From Shigella phage ESh27, in sequence record ON528737: 64,000 bases of DNA, one strand, 5' to 3'. The notes beneath the pieces are model-generated. The model did not search any database. It was not told the origin of the DNA and was given only the letters and a program-made list of their open reading frames with translations. The position numbers were made by a program, and so were the translations under genes. Positions within the stretch are counted from its first letter, which is position 1. Each line of letters starts with the position of its first letter. Shown one piece after another: positions 12,601 to 13,286 of this stretch.

Positions 12601-12831
12601 ATGTCCACTGAAACTATTGAAAAACTGCAGTCTGAAATCGTAATTCTGAAATCTCGTATTCTTGATACCCAAGATGCCGCCGCTCGTATTTCTGACGATT
12701 CTAAACTTCTTCAGAATACCCTAGCTCAGATTGCTCAACTAGTCGGTATTACAAGTGAATCTGTTAAACTGGAAGACCTGGTAGAAGCAGTACGTGAACT
12801 TGTTAAAGCCGAAACCACAGAAGAAGAATAA
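12601..12831 (+). CDS. 57A: tail fibre assembly chaperone gp57A
   Basis: 76-aa helical protein directly after gene 1. Confidence 0.8.
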
Positions 12832-13286
12832 TGAAATTTGAGGACTTTTCACAAGGCCTCTACGTCGCAGCTAAGTTTTCAGAATTAACACTTGATGCGC
12901 TGGAAGACCTCCAGCGTAAATTAAGAATTCCTAATCCAGTACCACGTGAAAAGCTTCATTCAACAATTTGTTATTCACGTGTAAACATACCATATACTAC
13001 GTCTAGTGGTAGTTATTCTATTGCCGAATCAGGACACTTTGAGGTATGGAAAACTGACGACGGCGCTGTACTGGTTTTAGTTCTTGATTCCGAATATCTT
13101 AGATGTCGTCATCAGTACGCACGAGCTTTAGGTGCTACTCATGATTTCGACGACTACACTCCACATATAACGTTATCATATAACGTTGGCCAACTATCAT
13201 TCAGTGGTGATGTAGCTATTCCGGTTATTCTCGACCGTGAATACAAAGAACCCTTAAAACTAGATTGGGCCGAAGATCTAAAATAA
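12831..13286 (+). CDS. 57B: gp57B; 2H phosphoesterase (Acb1-type anti-CBASS cyclic-nucleotide phosphodiesterase)
   Basis: 151 aa; two H-x-T/S motifs (HSTICYS, HITLSY) typical of 2H fold; position of T4 57B. Confidence 0.78.

What the first reader, a model, noticed from the sequence alone, without database searches (positions are those of the whole stretch)
12831..13286. Gene 57B homologue has the 2H-phosphoesterase signature of the anti-CBASS nuclease Acb1
Two H-x-T/S motifs (HSTICYS and HITLSY) in a 151-aa protein at the 57B position. T4 gp57B is the founding Acb1, which degrades cyclic oligonucleotide immune signals. An Acb1 here would add to the counter-defence content next to the internal-protein genes.
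Basis: partly seen in the sequence, partly recalled or inferred. Interest (0 to 1): 0.5.

Follow-up and report, generated by a model that had tools for sequence, protein, structure and literature searches.

The report
Acb1 anti-CBASS nuclease gene (57B)

Summary
Window 12831..13286 (+) is an intact 151-aa ORF with exactly two HxT motifs (H43-S-T45 and H112-I-T114), at the 57B position of an RB69-like (Mosigvirus) T-even phage. The gene order is 2, 3, 1, 57A, 57B, then internal head protein genes.

Two HxT/S motifs alone are weak evidence: they arise in 13.6% of shuffles of this protein. Homology settles it.
- Pfam Acb1 (PF23474) matches full length at 196.8 bits.
- The solved Acb1 of Erwinia phage FBB1 (PDB 7T26/7T27) matches at E = 7.9e-59, 64% identity.
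- T4 gp57B, the characterised founding Acb1, is 85% identical; RB69 gp57B is 99% identical.
- All nine catalytic or nucleotide-contacting residues named for Acb1 are kept: Y11, H43, T45, W73, F106, H112, T114, E140, W146.
- dN/dS against T4 is 0.06.

[quoted passage not shown] No assay has been done on this exact protein. Identical proteins are already in public phage records, and surveys already list acb1 in Mosigvirus. The window also encodes an Acb2 sponge homologue (28692..28958).

The parts
12831..13286 (+). acb1 (gene 57B) coding sequence, 151 aa plus stop
   Evidence: ORF listing and translation. Pfam Acb1 PF23474, 196.8 bits, residues 8-149 on profile positions 1-144 of 144. PDB 7T26/7T27 Acb1, E = 7.9e-59. 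85% identical to T4 gp57B and 99% to RB69 gp57B.
12957..12965 (+). First catalytic HxT motif, H43-S44-T45 (T4 H44/T46)
   Evidence: Codons cat-tca-aca read directly. H and T are invariant in alignment A1 with T4, RB69 and FBB1 Acb1. Their catalytic role is taken from PMC9117128.
13164..13172 (+). Second catalytic HxT motif, H112-I113-T114 (T4 H113/T115)
   Evidence: Codons cat-ata-acg read directly. Invariant in A1. T4 H44A/H113A is catalytically dead (PMC9117128).
13260..13283 (+). C-terminal lid, residues 144-151 (LDWAEDLK), including W146 (T4 W147). E140 (T4 E141, adenine N6 contact) lies just upstream at 13248..13250.
   Evidence: Lid residues 145-152 and the roles of W147 and E141 are taken from PMC9117128. 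W146 and E140 are invariant in A1 and verified.
12601..12831 (+). Gene 57A (tail-fibre chaperone). Its TAA stop shares one base with the acb1 ATG (TAATG), so the two are probably translationally coupled.
   Evidence: Pfam GP57 PF17594, E = 2.4e-24. Overlap read from the sequence. Same arrangement in RB69 and T4.
13364..13675 (+). Context: internal head protein gene (RB69ORF156c type), N-terminus MKTYQEFIAE
   Evidence: phrog_2667 'internal head protein', E = 7e-39. 98% identical to RB69ORF156c.
13725..14000 (+). Context: Ip9-type internal head protein gene. It occupies the slot where RB69 and T4 carry ipI.
   Evidence: phrog_7673, E = 8.3e-49. 72-74% identical to RB32 Ip9. Only the N-terminal leader matches RB69 or T4 IPI.
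28692..28958 (+). Context: acb2 (vs.4) homologue, the second anti-CBASS gene of this phage (a cyclic-nucleotide sponge)
   Evidence: tblastn with T4 Vs.4: 65.5% identity, E = 4e-32. Pfam Acb2_Tad1_hairpin, 65.7 bits. ORF bounds, using the internal ATG.

Best explanation
The ORF is the Mosigvirus (RB69-type) orthologue of T4 gene 57B and encodes Acb1, a roughly 17-kDa 2H-phosphoesterase. By inference from the T4 and FBB1 enzymes, it is made early in infection. It binds the cyclic di- and trinucleotide second messengers made by host CBASS CD-NTases (3'3'-cGAMP, cUA, cAAA). Aromatic residues Y11, W73, F106 and W146 stack on the bases. E140 reads the adenine N6. The C-terminal lid closes over the ligand. 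The H43/T45/H112/T114 tetrad performs metal-independent acid-base cleavage 3' of adenosine, through a 2',3'-cyclic phosphate intermediate, to a linear product. Removing the signal keeps CBASS effectors inactive, so the infected cell is not killed before the phage completes replication. The sequence-level steps (orthology, residues, synteny, purifying selection) are shown here. The chemistry and the biological effect are inferred from the characterised homologues.
For: - Family match: Pfam Acb1 PF23474, E = 1.8e-58, 196.8 bits against a cutoff of 27, covering the whole profile.
- Solved structure: phmmer against PDB gives Acb1 of Erwinia phage FBB1 (7T26 apo, 7T27 with 3'3'-cGAMP), E = 7.9e-59 over residues 9-148, 64% identity, one single-residue indel.
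- Orthology: 85% identical to T4 gp57B (NP_049750.1) and 99% to RB69 gp57B.
- Key residues: all nine residues named by Hobbs et al. are present: Y11, H43, T45, W73, F106, H112, T114, E140, W146, each equal to the T4 number minus 1.
- Substitutions: none of the 23 differences from T4 touches those positions.
- Selection: dN/dS against T4 is 0.06 with synonymous sites near saturation (pS = 0.71), which indicates strong purifying selection.
- Synteny: gene order is conserved with RB69 and T4.
- Distribution: 1,461 phage records carry a homologue covering at least 80% of the query.
- Biochemistry and genetics of T4 Acb1: PMC9117128 and PMC11722364.
Against: No assay exists for this exact protein or, as far as the searched literature shows, for RB69 gp57B. 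The substrate range could differ from T4 because of 23 substitutions, several of them in residues 56-66 and 76-80, which flank W73 in the sequence. The single-sequence AlphaFold2 model was uninformative (pLDDT 39.5), so the fold rests on homology to 7T26 rather than on a model made here. Many public records label the gene 'RNA ligase'.
Confidence: 0.94

Rival explanations
1. It is a LigT/ThpR-type 2'-5' RNA ligase or 2',3'-cyclic phosphodiesterase that acts on RNA ends, for example in tRNA repair, as the widespread 'RNA ligase' annotation implies.
For: PHROG phrog_755 is described as 'RNA ligase'. The T4 RefSeq record and many phage records carry that product name. There is a weak Pfam hit to 2_5_RNA_ligase2, and the two families share the 2H HxT/S chemistry.
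Against: The 2_5_RNA_ligase2 hit scores 16.1 bits (E = 0.012), below the cutoff of 27, and covers only residues 69-131, whereas the Acb1 hit scores 196.8 bits. No NCBIfam model matches, so no ThpR/LigT-type model does. The Acb1-specific base-stacking residues, E140 and the Trp-bearing lid are all present. T4 gp57B was shown to cleave cyclic oligonucleotides. The name appears to be a legacy of superfamily-level similarity.
Confidence: 0.03
2. It is an Acb1 homologue whose substrate range or role has shifted. It might prefer other cyclic nucleotides, or it might be a liability sensed by decoy-nucleotide systems such as Panoptes, rather than being a T4-equivalent anti-CBASS enzyme.
For: It has 23 substitutions relative to T4, clustered at residues 56-66 and 76-80. 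Over-expressed T4 Acb1 reduced colony formation of Panoptes-carrying cells in one assay (PMC12657218).
Against: Every residue reported to contact the ligand or to catalyse cleavage is unchanged. Deleting acb1 from T4 had no effect on Panoptes defence. Nothing in the sequence points to a new specificity.
Confidence: 0.03
3. The two HxT/S motifs are a chance feature of an unrelated or decayed ORF.
For: Two such motifs arise in 13.6% of shuffles of the protein.
Against: The homology is full length with E-values near 1e-58. The ORF is intact. dN/dS is 0.06. Synteny is conserved.
Confidence: 0

Closest known systems
Phage T4 Acb1 (gp57B, NP_049750.1), the founding anti-CBASS nuclease
   Same: Same genomic slot (1-57A-57B-IP genes). 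85% amino-acid identity. Length 151 aa against 152 aa. Same HxT/HxT tetrad, base-stacking residues, adenine-reading Glu and C-terminal lid.
   Different: 23 conservative or surface-type substitutions and one fewer N-terminal residue. Nucleotide identity is only 75% with saturated synonymous sites, as expected between the genera Mosigvirus and Tequatrovirus.
RB69 gp57B (AAP76056.1), annotated 'conserved hypothetical protein'
   Same: 99% identical and in the same position. The window is an RB69-like phage: 96.6% nucleotide identity over 92% of window 9000-19000.
   Different: Two substitutions, I64 in place of V and F70 in place of L. Proteins 100% identical to the window's are in other public Escherichia phage records, such as LF82-1 and ECO26.1 3-1.
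Erwinia phage FBB1 Acb1 (PDB 7T26, 7T27)
   Same: 64% identity over 140 residues. It is the structural template of the 2H fold with bound 3'3'-cGAMP. The catalytic tetrad, E140 and the lid Trp are invariant.
   Different: FBB1 has Phe where the window and T4 have W73, and Tyr where they have F106 (both aromatic). It also has one extra residue in the turn after G78.
LigT/ThpR 2H phosphoesterases (Pfam 2_5_RNA_ligase2)
   Same: Same superfamily chemistry: two HxT/S motifs and metal-independent transesterification through a 2',3'-cyclic phosphate.
   Different: The sequence match is below threshold (16 bits). The Acb1-specific ligand pocket and lid are present here instead.

Membership tests
Acb1 (Pfam PF23474; anti-CBASS 2H phosphodiesterase) | Full-length sequence match to the family profile above the curated threshold | tested here: met
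   196.8 bits against a cutoff of 27; profile positions 1-144 of 144 matched by residues 8-149.
Acb1 (Pfam PF23474; anti-CBASS 2H phosphodiesterase) | Catalytic HxT/HxT tetrad (T4 H44, T46, H113, T115) | tested here: met
   H43, T45, H112 and T114 are aligned and invariant with T4, RB69 and FBB1. Their role is taken from PMC9117128.
Acb1 (Pfam PF23474; anti-CBASS 2H phosphodiesterase) | Nucleobase-stacking aromatics (Y12, W74, F107, W147), adenine-N6-contacting E141 and the C-terminal lid | tested here: met
   Y11, W73, F106, W146 and E140 are present. The lid sequence is LDWAEDLK, against LDWADDLK in T4.
Acb1 (Pfam PF23474; anti-CBASS 2H phosphodiesterase) | Compact 2H phosphoesterase fold | tested here: inconclusive
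   The fold is inferred from 64% identity, with a single one-residue indel, to the solved chain 7T26_A. The direct test failed: the single-sequence AlphaFold2 model had pLDDT 39.5 and was not used.
Acb1 (Pfam PF23474; anti-CBASS 2H phosphodiesterase) | Orthologous genomic position in T-even phages (downstream of 57A, upstream of internal-protein genes) | tested here: met
   Annotation of the RB69 and T4 regions compared with the window ORFs.
Acb1 (Pfam PF23474; anti-CBASS 2H phosphodiesterase) | [quoted passage not shown] | not testable with these tools
   Shown only for T4 Acb1 and other homologues in PMC9117128 and PMC11722364.
LigT/ThpR 2'-5' RNA ligase family (Pfam PF13563 2_5_RNA_ligase2) | Profile match above the gathering threshold | tested here: not met
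   16.1 bits against a cutoff of 27, partial (residues 69-131). No NCBIfam hit.

The most novel reading that the evidence does not exclude
The Mosigvirus Acb1 variant might have a substrate spectrum different from T4 Acb1, for example better cleavage of 3'2'-cGAMP or of other CBASS signals. It differs from T4 at 23 positions, concentrated in residues 56-66 and 76-80 next to the base-stacking W73, and from RB69 at I64 and F70. Such a shift would reflect local adaptation to the CBASS types of its hosts.
Probability: 0.05. Interest if true: 0.3.

Novelty: already known. Interest (0 to 1): 0.1.

Why it matters
It confirms that this RB69-like phage carries the standard T-even pair of anti-CBASS genes: the Acb1 nuclease here and an Acb2 sponge homologue at 28692..28958. 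That is useful for annotating the window and for predicting its host range against CBASS-bearing E. coli. It adds nothing new to biology. The family, its mechanism and its presence in Mosigvirus genomes are already published (PMC9117128; the bioRxiv INPHARED review 10.64898/2026.05.06.722914). One practical point is that many public records still call this gene 'RNA ligase' or 'hypothetical protein', and that label should be replaced by Acb1.

Tried and rejected
1. Single-sequence AlphaFold2 model of the protein: mean pLDDT 39.5, pTM 0.32. It was too poor for a fold search, so none was run.

2. Search of the Hobbs 2022 supplements for RB69, NP_861845 or AAP76056: no occurrences in the files held as text. 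So I cannot say that RB69 gp57B is explicitly in their list of 273 homologues.

3. Literature search for 'Acb1' with 'RB69' or 'Mosigvirus': only survey-level mentions and no biochemistry on this orthologue.

4. Idea that the neighbouring Ip9-type internal protein (13725..14000) is a half-2H unit, because it contains 'DLTPHITL', close to Acb1's 'DYTPHITL'. Rejected:
   - Pfam and PDB gave no significant match; the best PDB hit was E = 0.07, to an unrelated histone chaperone.
   - BLASTP shares only that 9-mer.
   - The His is Tyr or Arg in every homologue aligned.

5. NCBIfam scan for ThpR/LigT-type models: no hit.

6. Promoter and terminator scan around the gene: only consensus-level matches at roughly the shuffled expectation. 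Nothing was built on them.

Full report
**Observation.** Window 12831..13286 on the + strand is an intact ORF of 151 codons plus a TAA stop. Its ATG shares one base with the stop of the upstream 76-aa ORF (…GAATAATGAAA…). That upstream ORF is the tail-fibre chaperone gp57A (Pfam GP57, E = 2.4e-24). The protein has five histidines. Two of them form HxT motifs: H43-S-T45 within 'HSTICYS' (nt 12957..12965) and H112-I-T114 within 'HITLSYN' (nt 13164..13172). The description is therefore accurate. Two HxT/S motifs are not rare by themselves: 13.6% of residue shuffles of this protein have at least two. The motif count is only a lead.

**Identity of the window.** Window 9000..19000 matches Escherichia phage RB69 (Straboviridae, Tevenvirinae, Mosigvirus) at 96.6% identity over 92% of its length, and phage phiE142 at 97.1%. 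The RB69 annotation gives the order 53 / 4 / 2 / 3 / 1 / 57A / 57B / RB69ORF156c / ipI / tRNA.4 / tRNA.3 / tRNA.2 … tRNA-Met. T4 has the same order on its minus strand: 3 / 1 / 57A / 57B / ipI / trna.4-.2 / tRNAs. The window ORFs follow this order, so the ORF is at the 57B position.

**What it is.**
- Pfam places the protein in Acb1 (PF23474) at E = 1.8e-58 and 196.8 bits against a cutoff of 27. Residues 8-149 cover profile positions 1-144 of 144.
- Among solved structures the best match is 'Acb1' 7T26/7T27 (E = 7.9e-59, residues 9-148). According to Hobbs et al. 2022 these are the apo and 3'3'-cGAMP-bound structures of Acb1 from Erwinia phage FBB1 (PMC9117128).
- In a four-way alignment the window protein is 99% identical to RB69 gp57B, 85% to T4 gp57B and 64% to FBB1 Acb1. 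The only differences in length are T4's extra N-terminal Met and one extra residue in an FBB1 turn.
- tblastn finds homologues in 1,469 phage records. Of these, 118 are at 99% identity or more, including 100% matches in Escherichia phages LF82-1 and ECO26.1 3-1.

**Functional residues.** Hobbs et al. report an HxT/HxT catalytic tetrad (H44, T46, H113, T115). They also report base-stacking aromatics Y12, W74, F107 and W147, an adenine-N6 contact by E141, and a C-terminal lid of residues 145-152. T4 Acb1 H44A/H113A is catalytically inactive. This numbering fits T4 gp57B, and the window protein is offset by one. Its Y11, H43, T45, W73, F106, H112, T114, E140 and W146 are all present. Seven of the nine are invariant across all four aligned sequences. 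At the other two, FBB1 has another aromatic residue: Phe for W73 and Tyr for F106. None of the 23 differences from T4 falls on these positions.

**Selection.** Against T4 the gene is 75% identical at the nucleotide level. Synonymous sites are nearly saturated (pS = 0.71) while pN is only 0.12, giving dN/dS of about 0.06. Against RB69 the ratio is 0.095, from 6 synonymous and 2 non-synonymous changes. The gene is under strong purifying selection and is not a decaying remnant.

**Mechanism (inferred from the characterised homologues).** Acb1 is a metal-independent 2H phosphoesterase. It clamps a cyclic di- or trinucleotide in a U-shaped pocket and strains it so that an adenosine 2'-OH attacks the adjacent 3'-5' phosphodiester. 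[quoted passage not shown] It blocks activation of the CBASS effectors Cap5, CapV and Cap4. T4 lacking acb1 and acb2 loses about 10,000-fold in fitness on CBASS-expressing cells, and Acb1 is the main determinant against one 3'2'-cGAMP-signalling operon (PMC11722364). The orthology and the complete set of residues make the same activity the best-supported function here. It has not been shown for this protein.

**Rivals.**
- *RNA ligase label.* This label appears in PHROG phrog_755, the T4 RefSeq record and many phage records. It reflects superfamily-level similarity. The Pfam 2_5_RNA_ligase2 match is sub-threshold (16.1 bits, partial) and no NCBIfam model hits.
- *Shifted substrate range.* This cannot be excluded without assays, but no ligand-contacting residue differs from T4.
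- *Chance motifs.* This is excluded by the homology statistics.

**Context.** The two ORFs downstream are internal head proteins.
- ORF 13364..13675 is phrog_2667 and 98% identical to RB69ORF156c. Its N-terminus is MKTYQEFIAE.
- ORF 13725..14000 is phrog_7673 and belongs to the 'Ip9' type, 72-74% identical to RB32 Ip9. Its leader is MKTFNEFISE.

From my own knowledge, these N-termini are the capsid-targeting leader typical of T-even internal proteins. However, the T4/RB69-type IPI body is absent from the whole window, and only leader-length matches were found. The window also carries an Acb2 (Vs.4) homologue at 28692..28958: 65.5% identical to T4 and matching Pfam Acb2_Tad1_hairpin at 65.7 bits. 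This phage therefore has the same nuclease-plus-sponge anti-CBASS pair as T4.

**Novelty.** The family, structure and mechanism were published in 2022. A 2026 survey already lists acb1 among the characteristic anti-defence genes of Tequatrovirus and Mosigvirus genomes. Identical proteins are in public records. This is a correct identification of an already known gene. Interest is low (0.1).

**Dead ends.**
- The single-sequence AlphaFold2 model was unusable (pLDDT 39.5).
- The Hobbs supplements held as text do not mention RB69.
- I suspected that the Ip9 protein's 'DLTPHITL' marked a half-2H domain. The His is not conserved in homologues, and no profile or structure match supports the idea, so I rejected it.

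Noticed in passing
window 28692..28958 (+): An Acb2 (T4 Vs.4) homologue of 88 aa: 65.5% identical to T4 and matching Pfam Acb2_Tad1_hairpin at 65.7 bits. The phage therefore carries both the anti-CBASS nuclease and the cyclic-nucleotide sponge, as T4 does.
   Followed up: partly
window 13725..14000 (+): The slot where RB69 and T4 carry ipI holds an Ip9-type internal head protein instead (phrog_7673; 72-74% identical to RB32 Ip9; 100% to phage TH58). Only the N-terminal leader resembles IPI, and no T4-type IPI body exists anywhere in the window. From my own knowledge, T4 IPI* inhibits GmrSD-type restriction, so this phage may lack that counter-defence.
   Followed up: partly
L007, L008, L009 (Ackermannviridae phages YX22, maane, LHE287); L005 (Kayfunavirus); L006 (Seuratvirus): The roughly 70-aa body of Ip9 recurs at 30-40% identity as the C-terminal end of 750-1,120-aa hypothetical proteins of Ackermannviridae phages. 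It also occurs as a small free-standing ORF in unrelated podo- and siphophages. It looks like a mobile domain of unknown function. K48, R49, D55, N62, N66, R69, G75 and G82 are invariant.
   Followed up: partly
window 15505..16135 (+): Only tRNA-Met (15505..15579) was found in window 9000-20000. RB69 has tRNA-Arg and ORF150c after tRNA-Met. The window instead has a 177-aa ORF (15602..16135) with a T5orf172/MUG113 domain (Pfam 35.7 and 30.6 bits; phrog_5032). This may be a homing-endonuclease-like insertion, analogous to segB in the T4 tRNA cluster.
   Followed up: no
window ~16917, ~25424, ~26181, ~26508 (+): There are further short matches to the MKT(Y/F)xEFI leader of internal head proteins. 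They suggest several more capsid-targeted protein genes (ipII/ipIII-type and others) elsewhere in the window.
   Followed up: no
window 13287..13363: The intergenic region after acb1 holds a promoter-like site, TTTACA-17-TACTAT with an upstream TG (13301..13329), overlapping an inverted repeat (GGATGATGAT…ATCATCC). It could be an early promoter or an RNA hairpin ahead of the internal-protein gene. This is a consensus-level match only.
   Followed up: no
public records (T4 NC_000866.4 57B; many phage records): Orthologues of this gene are widely labelled 'RNA ligase' (following PHROG phrog_755) or 'hypothetical protein', although the T4 protein is the characterised Acb1 nuclease. This looks like a systematic annotation error.
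   Followed up: partly
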